From the IMG/VR virus record IMGVR_UViG_3300021403_000004, positions 32,001-96,000 of that record: a stretch of 64,000 bases of DNA, one strand, 5' to 3'. Of this stretch, positions 5,183-60,993 are shown in pieces. The first letter of the stretch is position 1; each line of letters begins with the position of its first letter. This stretch comes from a virus. Lineage: Duplodnaviria; Caudoviricetes. A program made the position numbers and the translations under genes. The notes under the pieces were generated by a model. The model saw nothing but the letters and a program-made list of their open reading frames with translations. It did not search any database and was not told the origin of the DNA.

Positions 5183-5840
5183 GCGGCCCGTGACCACTAG
5201 CCAGCCAACCACGCCATGCCGCCGTGAACCCGCAGCCAATGACCGTTAGCCAGCCAACGACGCCATGCCGCCACTCAGTGTCAGCCAGCCAACGTACCGG
5301 TGCCGGCAGCCAAGGAGCAACTAGCCAGTCATGAACCCGCAGCCAGGGGGCGTTAGCCAGCCAGGACAAAAATGCAGCCCTTGAACGTGTGCCAGCCATC
5401 GGGATCATGAGCTAGCCCGCAGTAAACGCGCAGCCATGGAACGCCTGCCTGCCATGATGATGATGATGATGATGATGATGCACATGACCACCAGTCAGCC
5501 ACACTAGACGAGCAGCCATCGGACGCTTGCCAGCCATCATGATGATGCACACGACCTGCAGCCAGGGGGCATTAGCCAGCCACGGTACATCAGCCCTGAG
5601 TGACGGTCAGCCAACGATGCGGAGCCGCAGCCAGGATATACGAGCCAGCCATCATCCCGCAGCCAGGGCATGCAGCCATACGACCTGAGCCAGCCAGCGT
5701 GCCGGTGTCCTGCAGCCACGGGTTTACAGCCAGCCAAGGTACGCGTGCCCCGCGCGGCCAGCAGAACTCAGCCAACCATGCAGCCAAGACGAAGTGGCCA
5801 GCCAGCAGCCTCCTGGCACGCGCGGCGAAGTAGCCAGCCC
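5183..5840 (+). repeat. TIGR-like dual-repeat array 1 (degenerate)
   Basis: recurring GCAGCCA-N9-AGCCAGCCA units; contains an (ATG)9 run at ~5454-5480. Confidence 0.8.
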
Positions 5841-7281: not shown

Positions 7282-7530
7282 CCAGCAGGAGAACGTGCCG
7301 CCATGACCGTGAAGCCAGCCCCCATGATGCTGAAACCAGTCATCATCCCGCAGCCAGAGCATATGAGCCAGCCAAGATCGCGCAGCCAGATCCGTTCAGC
7401 CAGCCACGATAGGCGAGCATCCTGCAACACGGCCAGTCCATGGGAGCCAGCCGAGATAGTCCAGCCCGCAACGCAGCCAGAGCACGCGAGCCAGCCACTA
7501 TGCCACAGCCCGACGGCTACAGCCAGCCCC
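7280..7530 (+). repeat. TIGR-like dual-repeat array 2
   Basis: GCAGCCA-N9-AGCCAGCCA units. Confidence 0.8.
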
Positions 7531-7583
7531 ACTTCAATGCCTGCGCAGAGGCAAGAGAACTGCGACCCGCTACCATCATGACC

Positions 7584-7696
7584 AGCCCCCGCCAGCCGGG
7601 GCTTACAACCTTTCTCCCCGGTTACAACAGCCCGCCTGCTTCGGGCGTGAGACCGTGCATGGCGCTTCACGCGGAAGGCGAGATCTGGCGGGGGCT
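7584..7696 (+). ncRNA. putative structured ncRNA family C, copy 1
   Basis: terminal stem GCCCCCGCCA/TGGCGGGGGC; internal motifs shared with 8286-8397. Confidence 0.55.
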
Positions 7697-7723
7697 CTCC
7701 CGGGCGCAGGCCCTGCAGTCACT

Positions 7724-7900
7724 GACATCCAATGGACTTGAGCCAGCCAGGGTAGATGTGCAGCCTCAACACCTGAGCCAGCCAATGGAGTACAGTCAAC
7801 GCACCTGAGCCAGCCAGTGAAGTACAGCCATGGCAGGTCAGCCAGCCAAGGTAAATGTGCAGCCAGAGCATGCTAGCCAGCCGAGGCCAAGATGCAGCCT
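7724..7900 (+). repeat. TIGR-like dual-repeat array 3
   Basis: 5 regular units; spacers 9 nt and 7/10 nt. Confidence 0.85.
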
Positions 7901-7925
7901 CACGATAACTGAATAAGGAGAACAA

Positions 7926-8089
7926 GGGCAGGCCAGGAATTGTCCGGCGTTCGGGGAGCGGAATCACACAGCAACATTCATGTGATCCTCGCCGCTCCTG
8001 TCACCGGGCAGGCAAGGCGCACGCCAGGGAAGGGCCTTACACTACAATCTCTTCCCGTGCCTTCAGGAGTTCGATCCTCCTGCTGTCCA
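7926..8089 (+). ncRNA. tRNA-like structured ncRNA family A, copy 1
   Basis: GGGCAG/CTGTCC-A acceptor-like stem; AGGAG-TTCGATC-CTCCT T-arm; two long arms with variable loops. Confidence 0.65.
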
Positions 8090-8116
8090 CGCAAGACAAC
8101 TGAATAAGGGGAACAA

Positions 8117-8281
8117 GGGCAGGCCAGGAATTGCCCGGCGTTCGGGGAGCAGGCTTATTGGAGAAATCCAGTCTCAGCTCTCTGCTCCTGTCACCGGGCA
8201 GGCAAGGCGCACGCCAGGGAAGGCTTCTAATTAGCAGGATGCTTTTCCGTGCCTTCAGGAGTTCGACTCTCCTGCTGCCCA
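8117..8281 (+). ncRNA. tRNA-like structured ncRNA family A, copy 2
   Basis: same scaffold, different loops; T-arm AGGAG-TTCGACT-CTCCT. Confidence 0.65.
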
Positions 8282-8285
8282 CGAG

Positions 8286-8397
8286 GCCCTCGCCGGCCGG
8301 ACCTCCACGGTTAGGCAACTGCCGGTTACAATAGCCGCCTGCATCGGGTGCGTCAACTGACATGCACGAGCGCACGGAAGGCGGATACGGCGAGGGC
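8286..8397 (+). ncRNA. putative structured ncRNA family C, copy 2
   Basis: terminal stem GCCCTCGCCG/CGGCGAGGGC, with compensatory changes relative to copy 1. Confidence 0.55.
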
Positions 8398-8481
8398 GCT
8401 CACCACTGAATAAGCACGTGCCGCCAGAAGACCTCGGCCAGCCAGCGGGATCGTGAAGCATAAACTGAATAAAAGAAACAA

Positions 8482-8631
8482 GGGCAGGCCAGGAATTGCC
8501 CGGCGCTCGGGGAGCGGAGAAATGTGTACTTCACGCTTCACCACCGCTCCTGTCACCGGGCAGGCACGGCGCATGGCAGAGAAGACCCTTTTTCTTCTCG
8601 CGCTTCGGAAGTTCAAGTCTCCCGCTGCCCA
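8482..8631 (+). ncRNA. tRNA-like structured ncRNA family A, copy 3
   Basis: same scaffold, shorter second arm; T-loop TTCAAGT. Confidence 0.6.
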
Positions 8632-8647
8632 CGCGCGACAACGTCAT

Positions 8648-8872
8648 CCAGCCGCCAGCGCTCTTAAGCCCGCCAAAGTAGACCTGCAGCCAGCAGATCC
8701 CAGCCATCGGACCCCAGCCAGCCATCGTTCTCCAGCCAGCGCTTGGCCTTGGCAATGCCTGCGCAGAGGCAAGAGAACTGCGACAGCCAGCGCATGTGAA
8801 TCCGCCAAGATCGCACAGCCAGATAACCTCAGCCAGCCATCGTTCTTCAGCCAATGAACCCGGGCCAGCCAA
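8648..8872 (+). repeat. TIGR-like dual-repeat array 4 (degenerate)
   Basis: CAGCCA-N9-AGCCAGCCA units. Confidence 0.7.
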
Positions 8873-8889
8873 GGGAAAGGACAGTACCC

Positions 8890-9432
8890 ATGACAACGAA
8901 GGTAAAGGCCGAAGCCGCTAACGACCGCGCCCGCCGGCTATGGGACGGGGACGCGCACAGCACGGCGCAGGCGCTGCTCAAGGAGCTGATGGACGACCCG
9001 TCGCCCCAGGAGGCCATCCTGGTGCTGCTGCCGTGGATCACCGACCGGGTCCGGGCGGCCATTCGCACCGACGTGCGGGCAGCGGAGGAGAGCGCCTTCA
9101 CTAACCCGTCCGGCCGGCCCGACCGGGTCGCCCAGCACATCCGCTCGCAATCGGGCGCGCTGCCCGCGCTGGACAACCTGGAGATGCTGCTGTCGCTGCC
9201 GGTCCTGGTGCCCGTCGCGGGCAGCGTGACGCAGTCAGTCCTGTGGAAGGACATGACCATCGCGGATCACCAAGCCAGAATCGGCATGATCAGCAAGCCC
9301 CTGGCCGCCATTAACGCGGCCATAAGCCGCCATCGGTGGTCTATCGCCGAGATAAAGAAGCACAAGGTGGAGTGCCTCGGGCAGATTGACCTCGCCGTGC
9401 TCCGGGCTGAGATGCTCAGCTCCCGGGCGTAA
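8890..9432 (+). CDS. hypothetical protein embedded between arrays (candidate Tas accessory)
   Basis: AAGGA RBS; 180 aa; flanked by arrays on both sides. Confidence 0.8.
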   Translation: MTTKVKAEAANDRARRLWDGDAHSTAQALLKELMDDPSPQEAILVLLPWITDRVRAAIRTDVRAAEESAFTNPSGRPDRVAQHIRSQSGALPALDNLEMLLSLPVLVPVAGSVTQSVLWKDMTIADHQARIGMISKPLAAINAAISRHRWSIAEIKKHKVECLGQIDLAVLRAEMLSSRA

Positions 9433-9448: not shown

Positions 9449-9867
9449 CAGCCAGCTATCGCAGGACAGCGAACTTGCCGCCAAGAGACCCTAGCCAGCC
9501 CTGGTTCCCCAGCCGGGAGCTTTTGCAGCCAAGCTACTACAGCCAGCCAACGACCTGCAGCCAAACTACCAGAGCCAGCCAAGGTACCGCAGCCTAGGGA
9601 GATCAGCCAGCCACTGAAGGCCTGCAGCCAAACTACCGGAGCCAGCCAATGCCGTGCAGCCAAGCTACTGGAGCCAGCCAACGATCTTCAGCCAACCTAC
9701 CGGAGTCAGCCAAGGACCTGCAGCCGATGATCATCAGCCAAGCTACTACAGCCAGCCAACGACCTGCAGCCAAGGATCGACAGCCAGCCAATGTTCTTGT
9801 GCAGCCATGTACTGACAGCCAGCCACGGAGCCGGTGGCACATGCAGCCAAGGTTTGTGGGCCAGCCA
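9449..9867 (+). repeat. TIGR-like dual-repeat array 5 (most regular; directly upstream of the tasA-like gene)
   Basis: ~11 units, mostly 32 nt: GCAGCCA-N9-AGCCAGCCA-N7. Confidence 0.9.
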
Positions 9868-9896: not shown

Positions 9897-10793
9897 ATGA
9901 ATAAGGAGTACTGGCAGCTTCGCACTGCCGGGCGGAATTACTACGACGCCTACCGGCTCACCACCCGGATCGGCAACCGGCTGCGCGCGCTTGCCCGGGC
10001 CGGCGAGGCCTATGACATCGACCTTCATGCGCAGCTGGAAGCGGCGACTGCCATGAAGGACACCAGCGGGCGCATCCTCGTCCGCGTCTACAAGAACATC
10101 GGCCCCCTGAAGGTCCGGGAATTCCAGAAGGCCACCCTGGGCATCGGCGAGGTGTGGATGGCCCGGCTGATCGGGGAAGTGGGCGACTTCGTCACCTACA
10201 CCGAGGCGTGGTGGGAAACCCCGGATGACGCGCGCGGCCCGCTGGCCTCCGATGACTTCGATGACGACGACGATGAGCTCGGTGAAGAGGACGAGGACGA
10301 AGCGCCCCGGCCCAAGCGGGTGCTGGCAATCGGCGACGTGCGCTCCATGGGCGTCCGCGAGCTGTGGGCGTACTGCGGGCACGGTGACGCCGAGCGGCGC
10401 CGGCGCCGCAACCAGACGCAGGAGGAGGCCCTGGCTTCCGGGAACCCGGCCGCGAAGATGATCGTGCACCAGATGGCCGAGTTCGCGCTGCGCTCCAACG
10501 GGGCACCGGACAAGAACGGCAAGGCCCGCGGGCAGACCCCGTACTACCCGTGCTACGTGCGGGCCCGGGCGCACGCAGAAGAGCTGCACCCCGACTGGAA
10601 GGCCGGCCACGTCTACAAGCACGCGGTGCGGATAGTCGGCAAGGCCATCCTCAAGGACCTGTGGCGCGTCCAGCACGGCTACGAGCCCATCTACGGCGCG
10701 CACCAGGATGACTGGGTGCCGCGCCGCCCCCTGGTGCAGCCTGAGCGCACGGCACGAGCCGCCGTCCCGGGGCGCGCACCCGCTGGCGTGTAA
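9897..10793 (+). CDS. tasA: TasA-like Nop-domain RNA-binding protein (IS110 C-terminal-like, no nuclease domain)
   Basis: N-terminal coiled coil; LGIGEVWMARLIGEVGD, LWAYCG, GNPAAKMIV, HAVRIVGKAILKDLW match the IS110/Nop fold pattern; no DEDD/RuvC or HNH; flanked by dual-repeat arrays. Confidence 0.8.
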   Translation: MNKEYWQLRTAGRNYYDAYRLTTRIGNRLRALARAGEAYDIDLHAQLEAATAMKDTSGRILVRVYKNIGPLKVREFQKATLGIGEVWMARLIGEVGDFVTYTEAWWETPDDARGPLASDDFDDDDDELGEEDEDEAPRPKRVLAIGDVRSMGVRELWAYCGHGDAERRRRRNQTQEEALASGNPAAKMIVHQMAEFALRSNGAPDKNGKARGQTPYYPCYVRARAHAEELHPDWKAGHVYKHAVRIVGKAILKDLWRVQHGYEPIYGAHQDDWVPRRPLVQPERTARAAVPGRAPAGV

Positions 10794-10809: not shown

Positions 10810-11032
10810 TCAGCCAGGATCCTGGAGCCAGCCAAGGTAAACGAGCAGCCAGAGAACAACAGCCAGCCCGCGAACTCGTGCAGCCATTGAAGACCAGCCA
10901 GCGTATTCGTGCAGCCATCCCCGCCCGAGCCAGCCATGGGCCGTGTGAACATGCAGCCACGCAACCAAAGAACAACAACCAGCCATTGACCATGTGACGG
11001 CTCTTAATAATCCACGCATGAGCAGCCAGCCC
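10810..11032 (+). repeat. TIGR-like dual-repeat array 6
   Basis: GCAGCCA-N9-AGCCAGCCA-N10 units downstream of the tasA-like gene. Confidence 0.85.
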
Positions 11033-11051
11033 ATCATCTGGTGAAGCAAGG

Positions 11052-11093
11052 AAAAAGCCCCGTACCGGGAAACCGGTGCGGGGCTTTTCTTTT
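11052..11093. terminator. bidirectional intrinsic terminator
   Basis: AAAAAGCCCCGTACCGG-GAAA-CCGGTGCGGGGCTTTTCTTT between convergent transcription units. Confidence 0.85.
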
Positions 11094-11121
11094 GCCTTTT
11101 TTCACGCTGCCCCTGGACGCG

Positions 11122-12108
11122 TCATGCCAGGCCCTTCACCACGGCCCAGTCGCGCAGCGCCTGCGCCGCGTGCTTGTTTCCTGCCGTGTGCATGAGCGTG
11201 GTCCACGCGCTGGTCTTGGCCCACAGCTCCTGGTCGTGCACGTCATGGAGCGCCGGGGCGGGCGGCACGGGGACTGGCGGCGCTGGAACGGGAGCTGGTG
11301 GCACCGGGACGGGAAACGGTCGGCCGGTGAGCGCAGTGTAGTCCGCGGCAAACTGGGGCAGGCTGACGCCGTCCAGGAATTCCCGGCTGTTGAGGTGCTC
11401 AGGCCAGATGACGGCCCAGCACTCCTGCACCTGCCGGCTCCAGAACGCGTCCGTGAAGCTCGTCTCCTGGGCCCACGTGATGAACGCCTCGTCGCCGCCG
11501 AGCTGCCCGGTGCCACCGGAACCATAGCCGCCGACCAGCACGGAGTGGCCGCCCTCGTCCGGTGAGCCGGGCACGTAGTCCCAGGGCTGGCCGACGCTGA
11601 ACTGGTCCTGGTTGGCGGACTGGACCACGATGCCCGTCCACACCGCGCCGAAGATGGCAATGGCGGCCTTGACCTCATCCGGGTTGGTGTAGTCGACGGC
11701 AGCGAAGCCGAGCGCCTTCACGCCGTCCGGGCCGCCGTTGGCCACCAGGTCCTCCAGCGCCGTCTGGATGTCCATGCCGTTGTCCTGCTGGGGGAAGCCC
11801 GGGTTCTGCGTGGCGTAGAACGCCCCTACCTGCGGCAATGTCGGGTAGTACTCCGTGCTGAGCACGGCCGTGACCAGGCGCCGGAAATCCGCCCATGTTA
11901 CCGCGACGCAATCGCCCGCACCTTCGGCCGGGAACCCTGCCGCGACGTTGGCGGGATCAGGCCCGTTGCCGAGCATCTGCCAGCCCTGCAGCCGCGCCAG
12001 GTAATCGGCTGCAGGCGGGTGCGCGGGGACCACGCCCGTCAGTGACCGGCTCAGCCGGACGCGCGGGCGCCGGGGGTCATTCGGGCGGCGGCCGAATTTG
12101 AGGGTCAT
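11122..12108 (-). CDS. papain-like cysteine peptidase (possible lysin)
   Basis: GDCVAV catalytic Cys, GGHSVLVGGY His, FITW; Pro-rich linker and small C-terminal domain. Confidence 0.7.
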   Translation of the reverse strand: MTLKFGRRPNDPRRPRVRLSRSLTGVVPAHPPAADYLARLQGWQMLGNGPDPANVAAGFPAEGAGDCVAVTWADFRRLVTAVLSTEYYPTLPQVGAFYATQNPGFPQQDNGMDIQTALEDLVANGGPDGVKALGFAAVDYTNPDEVKAAIAIFGAVWTGIVVQSANQDQFSVGQPWDYVPGSPDEGGHSVLVGGYGSGGTGQLGGDEAFITWAQETSFTDAFWSRQVQECWAVIWPEHLNSREFLDGVSLPQFAADYTALTGRPFPVPVPPAPVPAPPVPVPPAPALHDVHDQELWAKTSAWTTLMHTAGNKHAAQALRDWAVVKGLA

Positions 12109-18305: not shown

Positions 18306-18507
18306 AGCCAGTCAAAGAAACAGCAGCCCAGGGACGCGAGTCAGCCAAGGACCAGCAGCCCGAGATCGCTTGCGCGCCAAGGACCAGCAGCCCGAGATCG
18401 CTTGCCCGCCAAGGACCAGCAGCCCGAGATCGCTTGCCCGCCAAGGACCAGCAGCCGAACCAGATGAGCCAGCCAGAAGACGGCAGCCACCGCCGGTCAG
18501 CCAGCCG
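18306..18507 (+). repeat. TIGR-like array with three near-identical 32-nt units
   Basis: (GCAGCCC-GAGATCGCT-TGCCCGCCA-AGGACCA)x3 plus unique units. Confidence 0.8.
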
Positions 18508-18672
18508 AAGACTCCCTGACCGTCATGGCTCACCGGCCGCGGGGGCAGCCCGACTTCACGTTGTCCACCGGCACGAGGGCCGGGCAGTTCTGCGTCGTCA
18601 GCACGCCCCGCGTTAGCCCGGTCCTTACCTTGATGACCATCACGCCTCACTCTTCCCCGTTCCGTAAAACGA

Positions 18673-18822
18673 CCAGCCATGAGACACGTGCCAGCCTCAG
18701 CGGCCCTGCAGCCAAGCGACTACAGCCAGCCACCCCATGCGTGCCGCCCTATCCGCTCAGCCAGCCAGCGTAGATGTGCCTTATGCCTCCCCTTCCTGCT
18801 GCCACAGATCGACAGCCAGCCA
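18673..18822 (+). repeat. TIGR-like mini-array
   Basis: GCAGCCA-AGCGACTAC-AGCCAGCCA and similar units. Confidence 0.7.
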
Positions 18823-19871: not shown

Positions 19872-21746
19872 TCACGTCACCGTGGCGCGCATGCTCGCCA
19901 GCTCCGTCACGGCGGTGTCAATGCTGTGGCCGCCCACGACCGGGCCGGTCACTCCCGGTGCCGGGGCAGTGCCCGTGCCTGCCGCCAGCCCTGCCGCTGC
20001 CGTCACGTTGCTGGAGCTGGCCACGGACGGCGGCTGCGCCGTCCCGTTCCCGGTGCCCGCCCCTGCAGCGGCCACGGTCACGGCAACGGGCGCCTGGGCA
20101 GTGCCTGCAGCAGCGGCCAGCCCTGCGGCGGCCGTCACGGACGGCACCGTGGTGACCACGGCGTTCCAAGCCGTCCCGGCGCCCGGGGGCAGCCCGGCAA
20201 TGACAGTAACCTGCGCTGCTGGCGGCTGGGAAGCACCGGCCCCGGCTGCCAGCCCGGTACCGGCCACGACTTGCGCGGCAGGCGGCTGCGCGGTCCCGGC
20301 ACCGGGCGCCCGCCCTGCGCTCGCGGTCACGGCCGCAGCTGGCGGCTGCGCAGTTCCTGCTCCTGGTGCCCGCCCGGGGCCGGCCGCGATGACGGCGCCT
20401 GGCGGCTGCGCGGTTCCCGTCCCGGCAGCCAGGCCCGCGCTGGCAGTCACGCTGGCCACGGGCGGCTGGGCAGTGCCCGTTCCGGCAGCCAGGCCCGCGC
20501 TGATGACCGCCGGGGTCACTTCAAGGTCAGCCCAGTAGTTTTGCGTGCTGCCGGCCGTCGGGGTGGTGACCAGCGCCACCAGGTAGGGGTAGACGTCAGG
20601 CGGGCCCTGGGTGAAGGTGCCCTGCCCGGCCAGCGTCGTGCCATCGCTGAACGCAGGCGTCCCGCCGGCATTGCCGTTGTAGTTGTAGGCCAGTGACGCG
20701 GCAGACAGCTGCGGCGCCGAGATGGGGCCGTTGGTGACGCCGCTGGCGCCGATGCCGTTGCGCCAGTAATCGGTCTGCGCGTCCTTGGCGAAGCACGCGG
20801 CCGGCGAGGCAGCGCCGTTGTACACGCCGGCCTTGTACTTGCCCGCAGGGAGGGTCGCGCTCAGCGTGCACGAGATCCACCCGGACGCCGCGGCGCCCGA
20901 CCACGACGGCGCCGCGTTCGTGGCGGCCAGGGTGCCCGTCAGGCCGCCGCCGGTGATGCTCCAGATGTTCGCCGCGGTCGCCAGCTGCGTCGCGCCTGAT
21001 GGTGAGTAGTACCAGAGCTTGCTGACCACGCACGCCTGCGACAGCGCGATCTCGGTGGCGACCTCGTAATTGTCCGGGGCATCGGAGACGATCGACGGGT
21101 TCGGCGGCCCGGTGTTCGGCCACAGCCGGTACGTCCCCGCGTACCCGGCAGGGGCCGTGTCGGAGACGCTGGCGTCCATCCAGAAGTTGCCGTTGTTGCT
21201 GCCCGTGAAAGGCATGTTCACGGTCGCGTCCGTGCCTGCCGTGGAGAAAACGCCCTGCGGGTTGCCGAACGGGTCCGGCGCGGAAAAGCCCTGGTCCGAG
21301 AACGCGAACAGGGGCCCGCTGGTGATGCCCGATGTGTGGCCGCCGGAGCCGTACGAGTCAGCCGCGCCCGTGCCCGCGCCGGTCGTGTCGGAATCGCTGA
21401 AGCCGTGCAAGGTGACCGCAGCCCAGCCGGTGCACGCGTTGTACGTGCTGCCGATCGACAGCTGAATGGGCGTGCTGAGGGCGACGAAGTTCCACTGCCC
21501 GGCCGTCAGCGTCCCGGACGTGACCGTCGCAGCGGGCAGCAGCGTCCCGGTGCCGGCGCCGTCGACGTGCCACAGCGCGAACTTCCGCGCCGTCACGTCC
21601 TCGCCGGTGGCCACCCACTTCCAGTAGCCGGTGAACCACATGCCGCCCTGGGTCACCCGGAACAGGACGCCCACCAGGATGTTGCCGGTGTAGGGCACCG
21701 GCGAGGACGGGCCGTTAGTGGCCGGGAACAGCCGGTACGTCGTCAT
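19872..21746 (-). CDS. virion fibre/decoration protein with DUF4082-like domains and Ala/Gly/Thr repeats
   Basis: two TYRL(F/W)P...N(F/Y)W.D modules followed by 20-aa AGLAAGTGTAQPP repeats. Confidence 0.7.
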   Translation of the reverse strand: MTTYRLFPATNGPSSPVPYTGNILVGVLFRVTQGGMWFTGYWKWVATGEDVTARKFALWHVDGAGTGTLLPAATVTSGTLTAGQWNFVALSTPIQLSIGSTYNACTGWAAVTLHGFSDSDTTGAGTGAADSYGSGGHTSGITSGPLFAFSDQGFSAPDPFGNPQGVFSTAGTDATVNMPFTGSNNGNFWMDASVSDTAPAGYAGTYRLWPNTGPPNPSIVSDAPDNYEVATEIALSQACVVSKLWYYSPSGATQLATAANIWSITGGGLTGTLAATNAAPSWSGAAASGWISCTLSATLPAGKYKAGVYNGAASPAACFAKDAQTDYWRNGIGASGVTNGPISAPQLSAASLAYNYNGNAGGTPAFSDGTTLAGQGTFTQGPPDVYPYLVALVTTPTAGSTQNYWADLEVTPAVISAGLAAGTGTAQPPVASVTASAGLAAGTGTAQPPGAVIAAGPGRAPGAGTAQPPAAAVTASAGRAPGAGTAQPPAAQVVAGTGLAAGAGASQPPAAQVTVIAGLPPGAGTAWNAVVTTVPSVTAAAGLAAAAGTAQAPVAVTVAAAGAGTGNGTAQPPSVASSSNVTAAAGLAAGTGTAPAPGVTGPVVGGHSIDTAVTELASMRATVT

Positions 21747-24700
21747 GCGCCGCCTCCGGGGAAGGTCACCGTTGCCCGGCTGCTGGCAGCTGGCGTCACG
21801 CTGGCGCCAGCGCTGTAGCCCTTGATGACGTTCGCGGCAGCTGACACGGCGGGCAGCGGGGCCACCGCCAGCGAGCTGGCCAGCTGGGCCCGGGCCGTCA
21901 CCACGGCGGCTGCAGCCAGCGCTGCCGCGGTCGCAGCCGCCAGCACGGGCGTCCGGGCCGGGACCGCGGCCTGCGCGGTTCCTGCGCCCGTGGCCAGTGC
22001 GGCACTGGCGGTCACGCTCGCCACGGGCGGCTGGGCAGCCCCGGTCCCGGCGCCCAGGCCGGGAGCCTCAGCTGCCTGCGCTACCGGGCTGAGGGCCGCG
22101 CCCGTGCCTGCTGGCAGTCCCGGCACCCGGCCAGGCACGGGCGGCTGGGCAGTGCCCGTGCCAGCGCCCAGGCCCGCTGCGGCGACAGCTTGCGCACCAG
22201 GAGACTGCGCCGTGCCTGCGCCCGTGGCCAGCCCGGCACTCGCCGTCGTGCTGCCTGACGTGGACGCCGTGGCCGTCAGTGCCGCGCCCGTACCGGAAGC
22301 CAGCCCGGCAAGGACGGTGACCTGCGCACCAGGGGGCTGGGACGTGCCCGCACTGACGGCCGTGCCCGGCGTGAGCGCCACGGCTGGCTGCTGCGCGGTC
22401 CCGGCACCGGGCGCCAGCCCGGCACTGACCGCGTCTTGTACTGCCGGGAGCTGGGCCGTGCCAGCGCCCGTGACCAGCCCGGCGGCTGCCGCGAGCTGCG
22501 CGGCCGGGGCTTGCGCGGTTCCCGTGCCGGAGGCAAGGCCAGAAGCCGTTGCCGCGGTGGCCACGGGCGGCTGCGCGGTCCCGGTTCCGGTGGCAAGGCC
22601 CGGCTGCGCGGTAACTTGCGCACCCGGAGCCTGGGACGTGCCCGCGCCCGCAGCCAGCCCGGCATTTGCCGTGGTGTTCCCTGACGTCGATGCTGACGGG
22701 GCAAGTGCCGTGCCCGTCCCGGCAGCCAGCCCGGCACTGACGGTGACTTGCGCACCCGGAGCCTGGGCGGTGCCCGTGCCCGTGGCCAGTCCCGTGCTGG
22801 CAATCGCGAGCGCTCCCGGGGCCTGGGACGCGCCCGTGCCTGCGGCCAGTCCCGCGCTGGCAATGACCTGCGCTCCCGGGGGCTGGGACGTGCCCGTGCC
22901 TGCGGCCAGTCCCGCGCTGGCAATGACCTGCGCTCCCGGGGGCTGGGACGTGCCCGTGCCTGCGGCCAGTCCCGCGCTGGCAATGACCTGCGCTCCCGGG
23001 GGCTGGGACGTGCCCGTGCCTGCGGCCAGTCCTGGAGCAGCCGTGACCTGCGCGCCCGGAGCCTGGGAAGTACCTGTCCCGGCAGCCAGCCCGGCAGGAG
23101 CGGCAGCCACGGCAAGGGGGGTGTCCAGCGCCGCGCCGGTGCCCGTGGCCAGCCCCGGAACTGCCGTGACGACGGCAAGAGGGGTATCGAGTGCCGCGCC
23201 CGTCCCGGCAGCCAGGCCCGCTGGCGCCGTGGTGGCCGGCACCGTGGCCGCCGGGCTGGCGATGGCCTGCTGCTGGCGCCGGTAGCGCCGCTGCCACAGG
23301 TCCGACCCGGGCTGCACGGGCGGCGCCGTCACGGCCGGCTGGGCAGGCGGCCCCTGGAAGGCCAGCACCCAGTCGGGATCGCCCTGGCTGTTGCTGCCCT
23401 TGGCCGTGGAATTGTACGTCGTGCCCGTGGCAGCAGGCGACGTGGCGCCGTTGACGGGGTCAATCCAGGTCGCGGTGTACCCGGGATTCAGCAGCGCCTG
23501 GTTGACGGTGATCGTGGTGGCGTGGCTGAGGTACACCACGGCCAGCGAGCCGTCTGGCGTGATGGAGCCGGTGACGTAGGCGTCCGTCGTGGAGGACTCA
23601 TACTGGCTGGTGGTGTACGTGGAGTGCGTGCCGCGCCCGGACGTGATGAACTGGCTGGCCGTGTCCGGCAGCAGGTTCTGCCAGCCGGGCAGCCCCTCGA
23701 ACGCCGTCCTGATCGCCAGCGCGCTGTTCTTCCAGAACCAGCCGGTCGCCGCCTGGTTCTGGGCGGTGGCCGGCCACTCCCAGACGCCCTCATCACCGTG
23801 GATCTTGCCGCGCGCGCCTGACGACAGCGCCCACCAGGACTCTTGCCGGAAATTGCGGTCGAACGCGAAGCTCGACCCGCCGACGTACGATGAGCCGCCC
23901 TGGTAGAAGTAGCCGTCCCCGGCGATCACCGGCACGGTGCCGTCAGCCGAGTACGCCAGCTCAACCCCGTAGTAGATGACCTGGTAGCTGTAGACGAAGT
24001 TGTACTGGGCGTTGGCGAAGCCCCACGCCTGGTGGGTGTTATTGCCGTCCAGCGTCAGGCGGCTGGTGGTCTCGGGATTGTTCTCGATGGACACCACGTG
24101 CGCGTCCCCGGCCGCGCGCACGCCCGTCATGAACGCCGTGATCAGCGCGTCATTCTCGCCGAAGTAGTCATCGGCAAGGTTCCAGACGAGGTTGGGCAGG
24201 CCTTTGTACCGGTTGCCGAGCGCTGTGCCGTACGCGGTGAACTCTGCCGCCGACTTGCCGAACAACGGCCCGGGACCGGAGCTGAAGTCGCTATCGTAGC
24301 CGATGGCGTTCAGGAACACGCAGATGCCCTTGGCCCGGGCGCTGGCCAGGAAGTAGTCGATCCGCTGCCAGTACGCTTCCGTCAGGCCCGACGACGGGCT
24401 CGCGCCCGATGTCCCGGTTGACGGCGCGCCGCCCTGGAAGGGGTACAGCCCGTCGAACGTCACGCCCTGGTCGTTGATGTTGCCGGACTGGGTGGTGCCC
24501 ATCGGCTTGGTGTAGACGACGTTGACGCCCTGGGCCTGGCGGGTGGCCAGGTAAGTGTCGTAGTCGGCCTGCCAGGCGCCGGACGTCCAGCGCCCCACGT
24601 TGCCGCACAGCGCCCAGGCTGCGTCGCCCCACACCAGCCGGGGCGTGCCGTACTGGTCGGTGAAGTACCCGTTCGCGCCGCCCGCGGTGCCCGTGATGAC

Positions 24701-25615
24701 CGGCGGGTCAATGAACCGGTACCAGGGGATGTTGGGATTGCGCCAGCGGTGCCGGAAGAACACGCCGCCCGGCTGGGCAGGCAGCGACGGCGGCGCGGGC
24801 GTGGATGCCTGCCCGTCCAGGCCGGAGCCGGCGGCGGCCGCCAGCCCGGCCATGACGGGCGGCGGCAGGCTGCTCGGGACGGGCTGCTGCGGGCGCCTCC
24901 ACCAGCGCCGCCAGGACGCGCTGCCCGGCTGCGGGGCTGGCGGCAGTGACGGCGGCGGGGCGGCCAGCTTGAACGCGACCAGGAGCAGGCCCCAGGTGGT
25001 GGCCCCGGAGATCGCCCAGGACAGGGACTCCAGGCCGCCCGTGGAGTTGCCGTAGCCCGCCACGAGCTGCGCGCTGTTGCTGGACCCCGAGTTCACCGCG
25101 GAGGAATAACCGGACAGCGTGTACGTGCTGCCGTACCCGGCGTCGCCCGCCATGCCGAGCAGGAACTCGCCCGCCGTGGCCGAGGAGTACGTCGTGCCGC
25201 CGGTGATGGTGGCTGGCGATGCCGTGCCCGTGTTGTGCCCGGCAGTGCCGTCCAGGATGGCCGTGGTGCTGCCCGCCTGGAGCCCGGCTACCTCAAGCAG
25301 GCCGGCGACGGCGCCGAAGTTCGTGCCGTTGGTGCACGTGATGACGGGCTTGAGGCCGGCATCGCCCGCTGGGGTGTCCAGCGCCCAGAAGGACAGGCCG
25401 CCCTGGCCCGACGGGTAGGCAACGGACCCGATGCTCGTGAAGCTGTTGGCCGCCGCGTCCTTGACGGTCGTGGGAACGGTGACCGTGTTGGAGTCCAGCG
25501 ACACCACGACGATCAGCTTGGAGCCCGATGACAGGCTCGCCGTGGACGGCGTGACCGTGCAGTTGCCGGAGCCGGCCACGGCACCGGTGGCTGACTGGAG
25601 GACGGACCAGCTCAC
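21743..25615 (-). CDS. large virion protein with a DUF4038 (apiosidase-like glycoside hydrolase) domain and long 20-aa repeats
   Basis: YFTDQYGTP..WGDAAW, YLATRQAQGVN, YWQRID, NLVW.L..DY, DG.LAVVY, WIDP.NG, DWVL; >20 AGLAAGTG repeats. Confidence 0.75.
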   Translation of the reverse strand: MSWSVLQSATGAVAGSGNCTVTPSTASLSSGSKLIVVVSLDSNTVTVPTTVKDAAANSFTSIGSVAYPSGQGGLSFWALDTPAGDAGLKPVITCTNGTNFGAVAGLLEVAGLQAGSTTAILDGTAGHNTGTASPATITGGTTYSSATAGEFLLGMAGDAGYGSTYTLSGYSSAVNSGSSNSAQLVAGYGNSTGGLESLSWAISGATTWGLLLVAFKLAAPPPSLPPAPQPGSASWRRWWRRPQQPVPSSLPPPVMAGLAAAAGSGLDGQASTPAPPSLPAQPGGVFFRHRWRNPNIPWYRFIDPPVITGTAGGANGYFTDQYGTPRLVWGDAAWALCGNVGRWTSGAWQADYDTYLATRQAQGVNVVYTKPMGTTQSGNINDQGVTFDGLYPFQGGAPSTGTSGASPSSGLTEAYWQRIDYFLASARAKGICVFLNAIGYDSDFSSGPGPLFGKSAAEFTAYGTALGNRYKGLPNLVWNLADDYFGENDALITAFMTGVRAAGDAHVVSIENNPETTSRLTLDGNNTHQAWGFANAQYNFVYSYQVIYYGVELAYSADGTVPVIAGDGYFYQGGSSYVGGSSFAFDRNFRQESWWALSSGARGKIHGDEGVWEWPATAQNQAATGWFWKNSALAIRTAFEGLPGWQNLLPDTASQFITSGRGTHSTYTTSQYESSTTDAYVTGSITPDGSLAVVYLSHATTITVNQALLNPGYTATWIDPVNGATSPAATGTTYNSTAKGSNSQGDPDWVLAFQGPPAQPAVTAPPVQPGSDLWQRRYRRQQQAIASPAATVPATTAPAGLAAGTGAALDTPLAVVTAVPGLATGTGAALDTPLAVAAAPAGLAAGTGTSQAPGAQVTAAPGLAAGTGTSQPPGAQVIASAGLAAGTGTSQPPGAQVIASAGLAAGTGTSQPPGAQVIASAGLAAGTGASQAPGALAIASTGLATGTGTAQAPGAQVTVSAGLAAGTGTALAPSASTSGNTTANAGLAAGAGTSQAPGAQVTAQPGLATGTGTAQPPVATAATASGLASGTGTAQAPAAQLAAAAGLVTGAGTAQLPAVQDAVSAGLAPGAGTAQQPAVALTPGTAVSAGTSQPPGAQVTVLAGLASGTGAALTATASTSGSTTASAGLATGAGTAQSPGAQAVAAAGLGAGTGTAQPPVPGRVPGLPAGTGAALSPVAQAAEAPGLGAGTGAAQPPVASVTASAALATGAGTAQAAVPARTPVLAAATAAALAAAAVVTARAQLASSLAVAPLPAVSAAANVIKGYSAGASVTPAASSRATVTFPGGGA
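22830..23032. repeat. near-perfect 60-bp coding tandem repeat
   Basis: ~3.4 copies encoding AGLAAGTGTSQPPGAQVIAS. Confidence 0.9.
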
Positions 25616-45019: not shown

Positions 45020-46012
45020 ATGTCCCGTATCGACCTCACAGGACAGCGCTTCGGACAGCTCATAGCCGTCGAAGTCATGGAAGGCCAGCGCATCAACGGC
45101 GGCCTTGCCTGGCTGTGCCGCTGCGACTGCGGCACTGAAAAGGTCTTCGCCTCCGGCGAGCTACGCCGGGGTCGCGCCTGGTCCTGCGGCTGCGGCATGC
45201 CCCGGTCCGTCGACATCGCCGGCCAGCGCTTCGGCCGGCTGACCGCCCTCTCAGCAGTAGACGGCCAGCGCATCCACGGATCACTCGCCTGGCTCTGCCG
45301 TTGTGACTGCGGCACCGAGAAGGTCCTGTCCTCGGACACACTGCGCGCTGGCCGTACCCAGTCCTGCGGCTGCAACGGCATAGCGCACCCCATCAACCTG
45401 GCCGACCAACGCTTCGGGTCCCTGCTCGTCCTCGGTGCCGCTGAAGGCCAGCGCATCCACGGATCGCTTGCCTGGCTATGCCGCTGCGACTGCGGCACTG
45501 AGAAGGTCCTCGCCTCCAACGCACTACGCACCGGCCACACCCAGTCCTGCGGCTGCGGCATGCACGCCGGAACGCACGGCCAGTCGTCGCGGCAAGGCAA
45601 GCCCACGCCCGAGTACATGGCCTGGGAGGCCATGAAGCAGCGGTGCCTTAATCCCCGCCATAAGGCGTTCCCCCGATACGGCGGCCGAGGCATTACCGTG
45701 TGCCCGGAGTGGATTGACTCGTTCGAGGCCTTCTTCGCGCACGTCGGCCCACGCCCCGGCCCGGAATATAGCCTGGACCGCTACCCGGATAATAACGGGA
45801 ACTACGAGCCGGGCAACGTACGCTGGACGACCTGGGAGGAGCAGAACCGGAACCAGCGCCCGCGCACGCCAGGACTGAAGCGACCCGGACGGCGCAAGGG
45901 GCCGCCACGGTACGCCGAATGCCACCCAGATCGCCCGCACGAAGCCAAGGGCCTGTGTCATGCGTGCTACCAGGCGGCCTGGTACCAGGCTCATCGTTCT
46001 CCTCCTCCCTGA
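45020..46012 (+). CDS. homing endonuclease with three CRCDCG/SCGC repeats
   Basis: DL.GQRFG.L..WLCRCDCG x3; YGGRGITVC.EW; LDR.PDNNGNYEPGNVRW. Confidence 0.9.
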   Translation: MSRIDLTGQRFGQLIAVEVMEGQRINGGLAWLCRCDCGTEKVFASGELRRGRAWSCGCGMPRSVDIAGQRFGRLTALSAVDGQRIHGSLAWLCRCDCGTEKVLSSDTLRAGRTQSCGCNGIAHPINLADQRFGSLLVLGAAEGQRIHGSLAWLCRCDCGTEKVLASNALRTGHTQSCGCGMHAGTHGQSSRQGKPTPEYMAWEAMKQRCLNPRHKAFPRYGGRGITVCPEWIDSFEAFFAHVGPRPGPEYSLDRYPDNNGNYEPGNVRWTTWEEQNRNQRPRTPGLKRPGRRKGPPRYAECHPDRPHEAKGLCHACYQAAWYQAHRSPPP

Positions 46013-54085: not shown

Positions 54086-54357
54086 TGGCTGCCTTACCTT
54101 GCTTGGCTGCACCTCTTTCTTGGCTGGCTGTCGTGCTCTGGCTGCACGCATCGCGTGGCTGGCTGCCGTGCCCTGGCTGCACGCATCGCGTGGCTGGCTG
54201 CCGTGCCCTGGCTGCACGCATCGCGTGGCTGGCTGCCGTGCCCTGGCTGCACGCATCGCGTGGCTGGCTGCCGTGCCCTGGCTGCACGCATCGCGTGGCT
54301 GGCTGCCGTGCCCTGGCTGCACGTCTGCAATGGCTGGCTGTCGCCTTCTGGCTGCAC
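54086..54357 (-). repeat. TIGR-like array of eight 35-nt units, mostly identical
   Basis: minus strand GCAGCCA-GGGCACGGC-AGCCAGCCA-CGCGATGCGT repeated, with unique end units. Confidence 0.9.
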
Positions 54358-54358
54358 G

Positions 54359-54565
54359 CTACGCGCCCGGCGGTACTTCCTCTACCTCCAGCAGGGGCCA
54401 GCAATGATGGACCATGCCGTCGTCCTGGCGCAGCTCCACGTCGCCGCCGTCCCCGTACCCTAGCAGGACGCCTTCCTGGACGACGTGCGCGGCTAGCTTA
54501 ACCTTGACGCGCTTGCCCAGCAGGGACGTCACGTGCGCGTGCCACTGCGTCAGCATCTCGCTCAC
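54359..54565 (-). CDS. small Sm/LSm-like protein
   Basis: LLGKRVKVKL....EGVLLGY...DVEL resembles the Sm1 motif. Confidence 0.5.
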   Translation of the reverse strand: MSEMLTQWHAHVTSLLGKRVKVKLAAHVVQEGVLLGYGDGGDVELRQDDGMVHHCWPLLEVEEVPPGA

Positions 54566-59001: not shown

Positions 59002-59099
59002 TTAATGCCAGGGGATGGCCCTCGGGCTGCTTGATGACTTGCGGACAGCACGCGAACTGTCCTGAACACCGAGAACGTCAGCAGCGGTGAGCACGCAAG

Positions 59100-59168
59100 C
59101 ACCCCTGCCAGGAGTCGAACCTGGCGGCTGGATTTAGGAAACCCGGCGCCGGGTCCGCCGGCAGGGGC
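59100..59168 (-). tRNA. tRNA-Arg(CCT)
   Basis: loop TTCCTAA; GTTCGAC T-loop; reduced D-arm. Confidence 0.7.
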
Positions 59169-59169
59169 C

Positions 59170-59244
59170 TGGAGTCGCGCCCGGGAGTCGAACCCGGCTT
59201 CGCACGGTTTGCAATCGTGCCCCCGCGCCAGCGAGACGCGCGAC
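59170..59244 (-). tRNA. tRNA-Cys(GCA)
   Basis: loop TTGCAAA; encoded CCA. Confidence 0.85.
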
Positions 59245-59245
59245 A

Positions 59246-59318
59246 TGGTGTCCCCGTCCGGAGTCGGACCGGATAGCATTCCTTCGGAGGGAAGGCAGCA
59301 GGTCCGCTGCCAGGGACA
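59246..59318 (-). tRNA. tRNA-Arg(CCG)
   Basis: loop CTCCGAA; encoded CCA. Confidence 0.75.
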
Positions 59319-59393
59319 GGAGCCCCTGTCCGATTCGAACGGGTACTCCATTGCCAGCCGCGCGGCCAGCGGAGACCAATCCAGGGTAGGGGC
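59319..59393 (-). tRNA. tRNA-like element, no assignable anticodon
   Basis: acceptor stem and GTTCGAATC T-loop; irregular long central arm. Confidence 0.45.
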
Positions 59394-59403
59394 CTGAACA
59401 CAG

Positions 59404-59485
59404 TGCGCGACATAGGATTCGAACCTACTCAGCCATAGCACCTGATTTACAGTCAGGTTCCGCTCGCCATCTCGGACGATCGCGC
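59404..59485 (-). tRNA. tRNA-Tyr(GTA)
   Basis: loop CTGTAAA; long variable arm. Confidence 0.85.
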
Positions 59486-59606
59486 AAGGAGGGTTTCCGC
59501 GGCCATTGAACCCGGCAGGTCACGGCTGGCTGCGGTTCGCGGGGCCGGGAGCCTGCCTGAGTCCGGCGTGCCGCACGAGGATGCCCTCAACCCCGGCTAT
59601 TCAAGA

Positions 59607-59681
59607 GGGTGATCACCCGGGTTCGATCCGGGACTTTCAGAGTCACAGTCTGACGTGCAGGGCCACTACACCATGACCACC
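59607..59681 (-). tRNA. tRNA-His(GTG)
   Basis: loop CTGTGAC; G-1/C73. Confidence 0.85.
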
Positions 59682-59699
59682 ATGAGCGCTTGCGCGCTG

Positions 59700-59772
59700 T
59701 ACACGGAGTGGGACTCGAACCCACGATACCCTGTTTGTAGGACAGGAGCCTTAGCCGCTAGACGACCCGTGC
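59700..59772 (-). tRNA. tRNA-Val(TAC)
   Basis: loop CCTACAA (C33). Confidence 0.75.
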
Positions 59773-59820
59773 ATGAACACTCCGGTCACTTGCTGATGAC
59801 GCCCCCGGAACCAGGCTCCA

Positions 59821-59895
59821 TGGTACAGTCACCGGGATTCGAACCCGAAATAAGAGATTCGTAGTCTCTCGTGATATCCGTTTCACCATGACTGC
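59821..59895 (-). tRNA. tRNA-Arg(ACG)
   Basis: loop CTACGAA; encoded CCA. Confidence 0.88.
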
Positions 59896-59896
59896 G

Positions 59897-59969: not shown

Positions 59970-59977
59970 TTGCTAGC

Positions 59978-60571: not shown

Positions 60572-60587
60572 CTACCCAGTATACCTG

Positions 60588-60769: not shown

Positions 60770-60770
60770 G

Positions 60771-60992: not shown

Positions 60993-60993
60993 A

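What the first reader, a model, noticed from the sequence alone, without database searches (positions are those of the whole stretch)
9525..9867. Array spacers are codon-phased: spacer A reads as sense codons, spacer B as antisense codons
Seen (hand tally of 43 nine-nt A spacers across the arrays, not all independent): GC is about 56%/39%/80% at triplet positions 1/2/3, the signature of actinobacterial coding DNA (e.g. TAC GAC CTG, GAG AAC AAC, CAG ATC GAC, AAC TAC CAG). Units of 32/35 nt cannot themselves encode a continuous frame. B spacers come mostly in two lengths differing by 3 nt, contain in-phase TAG/TAA when read forward, and read as good codons when reverse-complemented (c AAG AAC at; g GCC TTC ag; c ATC TAC cc; c GAG TTC gc). 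Inference: guides target both strands of ORFs, as in TIGR tandem targeting, with wobble bases fixed at guide positions 3/6/9. This may align mismatch-tolerant positions with synonymous escape sites. Families such as S-Y-Y/N-Y-Q/N-Y-R/S-Y-W/T-Y-R suggest tracking of homologous targets.
Basis: partly seen in the sequence, partly recalled or inferred. Interest (0 to 1): 0.85.

Follow-up and report, generated by a model that had tools for sequence, protein, structure and literature searches.

The report
Guide-RNA array with three-base rhythm
A soil phage carries arrays of short paired guide RNAs next to a nuclease-free guide-binding protein, and the variable parts of those guides show a real three-base rhythm like that of protein-coding DNA, which may be a first clue to what such guides target.

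Summary
Window 9525-9867 is a dual-repeat TIGR array: 10 units of 32/35 nt, edge GCAGCCA, loop AGCCAGCCA. It lies just upstream of a 298-aa nuclease-less Tas (TasA-type) gene in a 107-kb, 67% GC phage. At least eight similar mini-arrays lie in other intergenic gaps.

For 46 unique A spacers in the window's arrays, GC by position mod 3 is 0.56/0.37/0.77 (p=2e-10). The rhythm survives dereplication and recurs in independent arrays of related phages, in both spacers.

B spacers are 7 or 10 nt in 37 of 37 complete units. Their own rhythm in this genome is weak (p=0.024), and the antisense reading ties with another frame.

The codon interpretation is coherent but unproven. For it:
- A + 2 bp + revcomp(B) is the best joint frame.
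- A and B of a unit are coupled (P=0.0017).
- 88 of 90 units are stop-free on one strand (P=0.06).

Against it:
- Extra position-specific motifs, such as AGG straight after box C.
- No significant stop avoidance in the A-sense frame.
- Codon likelihood no better than random genome 20-mers.
- Published mismatch maps are not 3-periodic.
- No target was found.

The kind of system is known; the rhythm was not in the papers searched.

The parts
9525..9867 (+). Dual-repeat TIGR array, the finding itself: 10 units of edge GCAGCCA + 9-nt spacer A + loop AGCCAGCCA + spacer B. Units are 32 or 35 nt; the last two are irregular.
   Evidence: RNA-library contigs with 0 differences cover 9526-9764 (run X5) and 9623-9825 (run X6).
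9449..9524 (+). Degenerate leader-side units: TCAGCCA..., and GCCGCCA + 9 nt + AGCCAGCCC.
9897..10793 (+). tasA-type gene, 298 aa: Nop-domain Tas protein with no nuclease domain.
   Evidence: A profile of 31 homologues hits TasR 9mty_A (E=7e-15) and TasH 21kl_A (E=7e-11), aligned to their C-terminal parts only. AF2 model pLDDT 84.5. Foldseek top hits are TasR and TasH, E about 7e-6, TM 0.52-0.55. It is the only such gene in the record.
8854..9432 (+). Conserved partner gene of unknown fold, 180-192 aa, directly upstream of the array. Not ParB-like.
   Evidence: 16 homologues, several on contigs whose lengths match those listed for tasA homologues. No Pfam hit, no PDB profile hit, Foldseek best E=2.8.
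10810..11032 (+). TIGR mini-array downstream of tasA.
   Evidence: RNA-library contigs cover 10821-11131 (X5) and 10846-11049 (X7).
11053..11088 (+). Terminator-like hairpin (16 pairs, 10 G-C) with a T-rich tail, just after the last array of the tasA block.
5198..5803 (+). TIGR mini-arrays or single units in an intergenic gap. Includes an (ATG)9 run at 5454-5480.
   Evidence: RNA-library contigs cover 5269-5529 (X5) and 5311-5796 (X6).
7297..7529 (+). TIGR mini-array.
   Evidence: RNA-library contig covers 7309-7554 (X7).
7740..7899 (+). TIGR mini-array.
   Evidence: RNA-library contigs cover 7596-7815 (X6) and 7596-7811 (X7).
8651..8871 (+). TIGR units, partly degenerate.
18323..18822 (+). 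TIGR units mixed with a 32-nt near-perfect repeat (18344-18456).
   Evidence: RNA-library contigs cover 18485-18751 (X6) and 18594-18782 (X7).
54086..54360 (-). 35-nt-unit TIGR array with 5 identical units (A GGGCACGGC, B CGCGATGCG), upstream of a 983-aa gene that contains an intein.

Best explanation
Shown. The interval is a dual-repeat TIGR array beside a nuclease-less Tas (TasA-type) gene of a high-GC soil phage. Array stretches are present in three metatranscriptome libraries. Both variable segments of the units carry a period-3 composition, with G/C at positions 3, 6 and 9 counted from the CCA box.

Inferred from the family (PMC12045711; bioRxiv 10.64898/2026.09.09.750476). The arrays are transcribed with the operon and cut into tigRNAs of about 32-35 nt. 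Each tigRNA loads a TasA dimer. Spacer A pairs with one DNA strand and spacer B with the other, at adjacent sites. Binding blocks transcription or replication without cutting.

My reading of the rhythm (inference, about 0.4). The natural targets are protein-coding DNA bound in a fixed register. The target reads A(9) + 2 bp + revcomp(B)(9 or 6), which is 20 or 17 bp. At those lengths the third-codon positions fall on guide positions 3/6/9 whichever strand is the coding one. So either A or B may be the 'sense' spacer. The 3-nt difference between the two B lengths keeps the register.

How the register becomes fixed is unknown. It could be register-aware spacer genesis, or selection.
For: System:
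- Tas profile and fold.
- CCA boxes in both repeats. In relative L028 the repeats are the canonical UG...CCA pair: TGCAGCCA and TGACAGCCA, with 9+9-nt spacers.
- Terminator-like hairpin after the last array.
- RNA-library contigs on array stretches in 3 runs from 3 studies, while the bin 8806-9339 has depth 0 in all three.

Rhythm:
- This phage, A spacers: p=6.5e-11.
- Relatives: L025 A 0.004, L028 A 5e-6, L028 B 3e-5, L031 A 0.002, L031 B 8e-7.
- Six weaker loci pooled, n=51: 0.57/0.49/0.65, p=0.005.
- Distant arrays: L013 p=0.03, L063 p=0.007.
- Absent from 172 control nine-mers.

Coding-like features:
- Sense frame 0 is the best frame for A by 38 log units.
- Triplet use correlates with the phage's codon use: rho 0.69, against <=0.48 in the five other readings.
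- A and B have opposite polarity: L028 p=1e-4, this phage p=0.058.
- A + 2-nt gap + revcomp(B), frame 0, is the best of 18 joint readings.
- True A-B pairs read better on one strand than pairs shuffled within an array, P=0.0017.
- Only 2 of 90 units have stops in both strand readings; the null is 5.8 +/- 2.3, P=0.06.
- For the unit at 9766, 401 Actinomycetota genomes hold 15 matches at <=1 mismatch against 0 for the reversed control, and 12 of the 15 have a 2-nt gap.
- A 1-2 bp gap is tolerated by TasR (PMC12045711, passage).
Against: - No target was found in the phage itself or in 2.15 Mb of related loci beyond re-paired controls.
- Two IMG/VR scans gave 5 and 8 exact hits, about what my own rough estimate of chance gives.
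- In the A-sense frame, stops are not significantly avoided: 7 against 10.8 expected, P=0.16. In relatives, 11 of 252 phase-0 triplets are stops, more than in the other phases (5/168 and 2/168).
- In L063, 4 of 24 triplets are stops.
- In the cleanest array, L028, 2 units have stops in both readings.
- The three triplet slots differ: extra position-specific signal p=1e-4 here, 0.006 and 6e-5 in L028.
- AGG follows box C in both spacers, and as a triplet it is 3.3% against 0.7% codon use.
- The units' mean codon log-likelihood is -24.2. Random-phase genome 20-mers give -24.4 and real in-frame 20-mers give -21.7.
- The coupling test did not remove spacer families, so its P value is optimistic.
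- The distant 51% GC system L005 shows no period 3 (p=0.16 and 0.72).
- No mechanism that would fix a register is known.
Confidence: 0.4

Rival explanations
1. The rhythm is a composition rule of the guide itself. This TasA clade prefers certain bases at fixed spacer positions: purine-G-G after box C, A/T then C at positions 5-6, and G/C before box D. The reasons would be RNP assembly, processing or hybrid stability. The three G/C-rich positions happen to be spaced by three, and the targets need not be coding.
For: - G/C at 3/6/9 appears in both spacers read 5' to 3' from box C, as a symmetric dimer would impose.
- AGG at positions 1-3 is common in both A and B.
- There is significant position-specific signal beyond plain period 3.
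- Phase-0 stops occur near the rate expected from composition.
- The units' codon likelihood is no better than that of random genome 20-mers.
- The pattern is seen at 58% GC in distant arrays L013 and L063.
Against: - A symmetric rule does not predict the opposite 1st/2nd-position asymmetry of A and B (L028 p=1e-4).
- It does not predict the within-unit A-B coupling (P=0.0017).
- It does not predict the deficit of units stopped on both strands (2 against 5.8).
- It is not seen in L005.
- In L031 B a plain period-3 model suffices (p=0.22 for extra position terms).
- The passages read on the TasR structure describe an A-form 9-bp hybrid with a 2-bp seed and no triplet contacts.
Confidence: 0.35
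2. The rhythm is an artefact of shared descent. The arrays grew by duplication of a few units, so a few ancestral 9-mers dominate the count.
For: - Units at 9525 and 9734 are identical, and five units of the 54-kb array are identical.
- Single-linkage clustering at <=3 mismatches joins 32 of 45 unique spacers into one cluster.
- In the finding's own array, 5 of 9 unique A spacers share nnCTACnnn.
Against: - The signal survives greedy dereplication: n=40 at >2 mismatches and n=27 at >3 mismatches, both p<=2e-4; n=15 at >4 mismatches, p=0.035.
- It recurs in arrays of other phages whose Tas proteins are 35-74% identical and whose loop repeats differ.
Confidence: 0.07
3. The repeats are not guide RNAs at all. 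They would be DNA or RNA binding sites (iteron, centromere or operator-like) for a phage protein, and the variable parts are mere linkers.
For: - The arrays are scattered through many intergenic gaps rather than forming one long array.
- Many units are degenerate.
- A conserved unknown protein is encoded beside them.
Against: - The adjacent gene has the Tas fold.
- The repeat pair, the spacer lengths and the CCA/UG boxes fit the published dual-repeat definition.
- Subarrays and arrays placed between genes are described for TasA loci (PMC12045711, passages).
- Linkers would not be expected to carry a period-3 composition.
Confidence: 0.03

Closest known systems
Dual-repeat TIGR arrays with TasA (Faure et al. 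2025, PMC12045711; TasA shown to be an RNA-guided repressor in bioRxiv 10.64898/2026.09.09.750476)
   Same: - A solo Nop-domain Tas protein.
- Two alternating short repeats, each ending in the CCA 'box C'.
- 9-nt spacer A.
- Arrays both upstream and downstream of tas.
- A terminator-like hairpin at the end.
- A phage as the carrier.
   Different: - The units are spread as at least nine mini-arrays or single units over about 14 kb of intergenic gaps, plus one array 44 kb away on the other strand.
- The loop repeat begins with AG, not UG.
- Two spacer-B lengths (6-7 and 9-10 nt) are mixed within one array, whereas the paper says spacer size is constant within a locus (section 4).
- The operon partner is not ParB-like.
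- The spacers show a period-3 composition. I found no mention of this in the sections and passages I read or in search.
TasR and TasH nuclease effectors (PDB 9MTY, 9W04, 21KL)
   Same: They are the best sequence-profile and fold matches. By inference the system shares their tandem-spacer recognition of both DNA strands.
   Different: The window's protein aligns only to residues of about 118-298 of TasR and 68-280 of TasH. It therefore has no RuvC or HNH domain and is expected to bind rather than cut.
IS110/IS621 bridge-RNA recombinases (PDB 8WT6, 8WT9, 9T56)
   Same: A distant fold match of the RNA-binding part: Foldseek E from 2e-3 to 4e-2. PHROG 4285, labelled 'transposase', hits the protein at 4.6e-21.
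   Different: There is no DEDD/RuvC catalytic domain, the repeats form arrays rather than a single bridge RNA, and no transposon ends were seen.
Periodic guide positions in CRISPR type I Cascade, where every sixth base is not paired (recalled from memory; not tested here, no call)
   Same: It is a precedent for guide positions that are regularly spaced and behave differently in pairing.
   Different: The period is 6, not 3. It rests on solved structures. For Tas proteins nothing of the kind is described in the passages I read.

Membership tests
TIGR-Tas, dual-repeat type | A Nop-domain Tas protein encoded next to the array | tested here: met
   Profile against PDB: TasR 9mty_A at 7e-15 and TasH at 7e-11. 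Foldseek on a pLDDT 84.5 model ranks TasR and TasH first, E about 7e-6. The gene starts 30 nt after the array.
TIGR-Tas, dual-repeat type | Two distinct alternating 8-12-nt repeats separated by spacers of about 9 nt | tested here: met
   Edge (T)GCAGCCA, loop AGCCAGCCA, spacer A always 9 nt. Deviation: spacer B comes in two lengths.
TIGR-Tas, dual-repeat type | Box C (CCA) and box D (UG) flank the spacers and covary between edge and loop repeats | tested here: inconclusive
   CCA ends both repeats. UG precedes the edge in 35-nt units, but the loop has AG here. Relative L028 has UG in both repeats and L031 has CG in both. The definition comes from PMC12045711 (passage).
TIGR-Tas, dual-repeat type | Arrays lie upstream and/or downstream of tas and end with a rho-independent terminator | tested here: met
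   Arrays at 9449-9867 and 10810-11032 flank the gene. A hairpin of 16 pairs with a T-rich tail lies at 11053-11088.
TIGR-Tas, dual-repeat type | The array is transcribed and processed into tigRNAs of about 36 nt | tested here: inconclusive
   Contigs from three metatranscriptome runs cover array stretches with 0 differences. Contigs cannot show strand, ends or processing, and DNA carry-over is not excluded.
TIGR-Tas, dual-repeat type | The spacers pair in tandem with opposite strands of one DNA target | not testable with these tools
   No target was identified. Only indirect support exists: A-B coupling and a preferred 2-nt gap.
TasA subtype | No HNH or RuvC domain | tested here: met
   The protein is 298 aa. 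The alignment covers only the Nop and coiled-coil part of TasR and TasH. There are no Pfam hits.
tasParB-tasA operons (PMC12045711, Methods passage) | A ParB-like gene in an operon with tasA | tested here: not met
   The conserved upstream gene has no Pfam hit, no PDB profile hit below E=0.2 and a Foldseek best E of 2.8. The model is only moderate (pLDDT 76.5, pTM 0.38), so a very remote relationship is not excluded.
   A-sense frame: 7 observed against 10.8 expected, P=0.16. Allowing either strand: 2 of 90 units are stopped in both readings against 5.8 expected, P=0.06. Truly coding fragments would give about 0.
   There is extra position-specific signal, p=1e-4. AGG, CAT and GTT are over-used and Ala and Gly codons under-used. 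The units' likelihood equals that of random genome 20-mers.

The most novel reading that the evidence does not exclude
TIGR spacers of this TasA clade are made or kept in codon register. Both 9-nt spacers would place their positions 3, 6 and 9 on third-codon positions of an ORF. The target would be spacer A + 2 bp + revcomp(spacer B), a 20-bp (or 17-bp) footprint whose register is the same on both strands. That would mean the natural targets are genes. It would also mean spacer genesis or retention senses the reading frame, which is not known for any RNA-guided system, and it would give a rule for predicting TIGR targets.
Probability: 0.35. Interest if true: 0.85.

Novelty: new variant of a known kind. 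Interest (0 to 1): 0.62.

Why it matters
The origin of TIGR spacers and their natural targets are stated open questions (PMC12045711 Discussion; bioRxiv 10.64898/2026.09.09.750476 Discussion passage).

A reproducible three-base rhythm in both spacers, with a preferred 2-bp gap, is a concrete and testable clue. If it comes from the targets, it says the guides aim at genes in a fixed register. That narrows target searches, which currently drown in chance matches of 18 nt. If it comes from the RNP, it is a design rule for guides of this compact, PAM-free TasA clade.

Either outcome can be settled with the published catalogue of about 65,000 dual-repeat tigRNAs and with simple binding assays.

Tried and rejected
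Self-targeting. I searched for A (<=1 mismatch) with B or revcomp(B) (<=1 mismatch) within 22 nt in the whole 106,870-bp record. It gave only noise for 6-nt B and a handful of 9+9 hits, in line with my estimate of chance. Minimum mismatches of 16 A+gap+revcomp(B) composites at gaps 0-3 matched those of re-paired controls.

Targets in fetched loci. I ran 51 units against 2.15 Mb, both strands counted. True and re-paired distributions were alike.

IMG/VR exact scans of two composites gave 5 and 8 stretches, which are 3 + 3 independent sites. Five of those 6 have a 2-nt gap. One lies in frame 0 of a tape-measure-like ORF of a 69% GC contig (L110). By my own rough estimate the counts are about what chance gives, so no target is claimed.

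Array-pattern scans of IMG/VR gave 66 and 16 stretches. Nearly all were single chance matches. Only L154 and L187 held arrays, and L201 is an unrelated 18-nt tandem repeat.

The idea that spacers were captured from coding DNA together with repeat-like flanks is rejected. In the phage's genes the base after CAGCCA sits mostly at codon offset 2 (18 of 31), and such nine-mers show no G/C peak at 3/6/9.

The idea that the array is itself translated is rejected. Units of 32 and 35 nt shift the frame by 2 each, so successive A spacers fall in different phases of any ORF (from the sequence).

The ParB-like partner is not supported.

Host assignment failed. There is no near DNA match in the phage or plasmid collections. 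The capsid's best relatives are Streptomyces phages at about 31% identity. The Tas protein has one weak hit, in an Arthrobacter phage.

Rfam has nothing on the arrays.

Parts of the window without RNA-contig cover are not used as evidence of silence. Runs X6-X9 hold small shares of the query, and no habitat claim is made from them.

They may list this clade or its spacer composition.

The Python cap (40 of 40 scripts) was reached, so the coupling test could not be repeated after removing spacer families.
Full report
**What is there.** The window is bases 32001-96000 of a single 106,870-bp virus record with 67% GC. It encodes a HK97-type capsid protein (PF05065, E=7.8e-57) and a prohead protease, so it is a tailed phage. 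It has no near DNA relative in the phage or plasmid collections.

At 9525-9867 the sequence is a regular alternation: GCAGCCA, 9 variable bases, AGCCAGCCA, then 7 or 10 variable bases, giving units of 32 or 35 nt. The loop motif, with at most one mismatch, occurs 73 times in the window against 12.2 expected; 0 of 100 shuffles reach 73. It clusters in at least nine intergenic patches: eight on the + strand between 5.2 and 18.8 kb, and one on the - strand at 54.1-54.4 kb, which has five identical units.

**The neighbouring gene.** The ORF at 9897-10793 (298 aa) has no Pfam hit, but it does hit PHROG 4285, labelled 'transposase'. A profile of 31 homologues matches the solved TasR (9mty_A, E=7e-15) and TasH (21kl_A, E=7e-11). 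The alignment covers only their C-terminal Nop and coiled-coil parts. An AlphaFold model (pLDDT 84.5) has TasR and TasH as its best folds in the PDB (E about 7e-6, TM 0.52-0.55), followed by IS110-family recombinases. It is the only such gene in the record.

The published definition of dual-repeat TIGR arrays has three elements: two alternating 8-12-nt repeats, spacers of about 9 nt, and a CCA 'box C' with a UG 'box D' (PMC12045711, section 4 and passages). That definition fits. In the relative L028 the repeats are TGCAGCCA and TGACAGCCA with 9+9-nt spacers. In the window the loop starts with AG instead of UG.

A strong terminator-like hairpin follows the last array of the block, at 11053-11088. 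The conserved gene just upstream (8854-9432) appears to travel with tasA homologues. It is not ParB-like.

Contigs from three soil metatranscriptome runs, each from a different study, lie on array stretches with no differences. Examples are 9526-9764, 9623-9825, 5311-5796, 7596-7815, 10821-11131 and 18485-18751. The bin 8806-9339 has depth 0 in all three runs, while a DNA run covers everything. This fits transcription of the arrays, but contigs cannot show strand, ends or processing.

**The observation.** I extracted A spacers by their flanks. Inside the window's arrays there are 51 instances, 46 of them unique. GC at positions 1,4,7 / 2,5,8 / 3,6,9 is 0.56/0.37/0.77. A period-3 model beats a uniform one with p=2.1e-10. 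After dropping spacers within 2 mismatches of another (n=35), p=5.3e-6. In the strict whole-record set the permutation p stays <=2e-4 down to n=27 (>3 mismatches) and is 0.035 at n=15. The finding's own array gives 0.26/0.41/0.89 for 9 unique spacers. Nine-mers that follow CAGCCA elsewhere in the record (n=172) give 0.76/0.68/0.67.

B has 7 nt in 17 of 37 complete units and 10 nt in 20 of 37. Its period-3 signal in this phage is weak (p=0.024).

**Replication.** Metagenome contigs that encode Tas proteins 35-74% identical carry the same kind of array. Period 3 is significant in several:
- L025 A, p=0.004
- L028 A, p=5e-6, and L028 B, p=3e-5
- L031 A, p=0.002, and L031 B, p=8e-7 (GC at 3/6/9 = 0.95)

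Six loci with few or irregular units are individually weak but give p=0.005 when pooled (n=51; 0.57/0.49/0.65). Two distant arrays at 58% GC also show it: L013, n=5, p=0.03, and L063, n=8, p=0.007. L023 and L010 do not. A distant 51% GC system with 10-nt spacers (L005, 25 units) does not either (p=0.16 and 0.72).

**Is it codons? Results in favour.**
- With the phage's own codon table, sense frame 0 is the best reading of A by 38 log units.
- Phase-0 triplet use correlates with codon use: rho 0.69, against at most 0.48 for the other readings.
- A and B have opposite first/second-position asymmetry: L028 p=1e-4, this phage p=0.058.
- Of 18 joint readings, A + 2 nt + revcomp(B) in frame 0 is the best.

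The order A then revcomp(B) is the one that yields the published 8-nt 3' overhangs of TasR. That is my derivation from the passages.

- For the unit at 9766, 401 Actinomycetota genomes hold 15 matches at <=1 mismatch against 0 for the reversed control, and 12 of the 15 have a 2-nt gap.

Three of the six inspected sites are one conserved motif of an MFS-type transporter, read on the other strand, so there B is the sense spacer and A the antisense one. This made me notice a geometric point. With a 2-nt gap the footprint is 20 bp (17 bp with the short B), and the third-codon positions then coincide on both strands. Either spacer may therefore be the 'sense' one, and the 3-nt difference in B length keeps the register.

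I tested the two-strand reading on 90 complete units:
- 61 have no stop in either reading, 27 have one free reading, and 2 are stopped in both. The null is 5.8 +/- 2.3, P=0.06.
- True A-B pairs read better on a single strand than pairs shuffled within arrays, P=0.0017. Spacer families were not removed for this test.

**Results against.**
- Stops in the A-sense frame are not significantly avoided: 7 against 10.8 expected, P=0.16. In relatives 11 of 252 phase-0 triplets are stops, and in L063 4 of 24.
- The three triplet slots are not alike (p=1e-4).
- AGG directly after box C is common in both spacers, and as a 'codon' it is 3.3% against 0.7% in genes. Ala and Gly codons are under-used.
- The units' mean codon log-likelihood is -24.2, equal to random-phase genome 20-mers (-24.4) and far from real in-frame 20-mers (-21.7).
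- No target was found in the phage, in 2.15 Mb of related loci, or convincingly in IMG/VR.
- Published mismatch maps are not 3-periodic.

**Verdict.** The system is a TasA-type TIGR locus of unusual layout. The rhythm is real and reproducible.

I rate the explanations as follows:
- Register-locked targeting of genes, on either strand, with a 2-bp gap: about 0.40.
- A guide-intrinsic position preference that happens to have period 3: about 0.35.
- Shared descent alone: about 0.07.
- The arrays are not guides at all: about 0.03.

The rest is unassigned, including mixtures of these.

I found no mention of codon phasing or periodicity of TIGR spacers. What I read was sections 4, 6 and 10 plus passages of PMC12045711, sections 5 and 12 plus passages of one preprint, and passages of a second preprint. 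A full-text search for tigRNA together with wobble, periodicity, codon position or reading frame listed 10 papers, and none of them contained 'tigRNA'.

Noticed in passing
window 59099-63876 (- strand): A dense cluster of about 29 tRNA genes. It includes Arg(CCT), Ile(TAT), two each of Lys, Glu and Gln, and three Pro. Rfam also scores 61301-61383 just above the tRNA-Sec threshold (50.8 against 47 bits), at a place where ARAGORN lists no gene.
   Followed up: no
window 54121-54330 (- strand): Five identical 35-nt TIGR units in a row (A GGGCACGGC, B CGCGATGCG), immediately upstream of a 983-aa gene that carries a LAGLIDADG/intein-type insert (51086-54037). This is an unusual amplification of a single guide.
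   Followed up: partly
window 8854-9432: A conserved 180-192-aa helical protein encoded just upstream of the array and tasA. Its homologues lie on contigs whose lengths match those of tasA homologues. It has no Pfam, PDB-profile or fold match, so it may be a new Tas partner.
   Followed up: partly
L207, L208, L209 (three Actinomycetota genomes): Three of six inspected near-matches (1 mismatch, 2-nt gap) of the unit at 9766 fall on the same conserved motif (..SAMFFGSILFL..). In L208 the motif lies in a 487-aa ORF that I judge, by eye, to be an MFS-type transporter. It is read with spacer B as sense. This could be chance in a very large gene family.
   Followed up: partly
window 7566-8750: RNA-library contigs of two runs (X6, X7) join 7566/7567 to 8750 with about 36 other letters between. 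This probably reflects a related phage variant that carries different sequence in place of this 1.2-kb stretch.
   Followed up: no
window 45080-45563 and 22709-23093: A 183-nt tandem repeat (2.7 copies) and a 60-nt tandem repeat (6.4 copies). The 60-nt repeat lies inside a 1290-aa protein with an apiosidase-like domain (21743-25615, - strand).
   Followed up: no
window 5454-5480: A perfect (ATG)9 microsatellite embedded in the first array patch. RNA-library reads appear cut there (note).
   Followed up: no
L201 (IMG/VR contig, 46% GC): An 18-nt tandem repeat built on GACAGCCA + ACAGTATGG-like units. It shares the AGCC anchor but is not a dual-repeat TIGR array.
   Followed up: no
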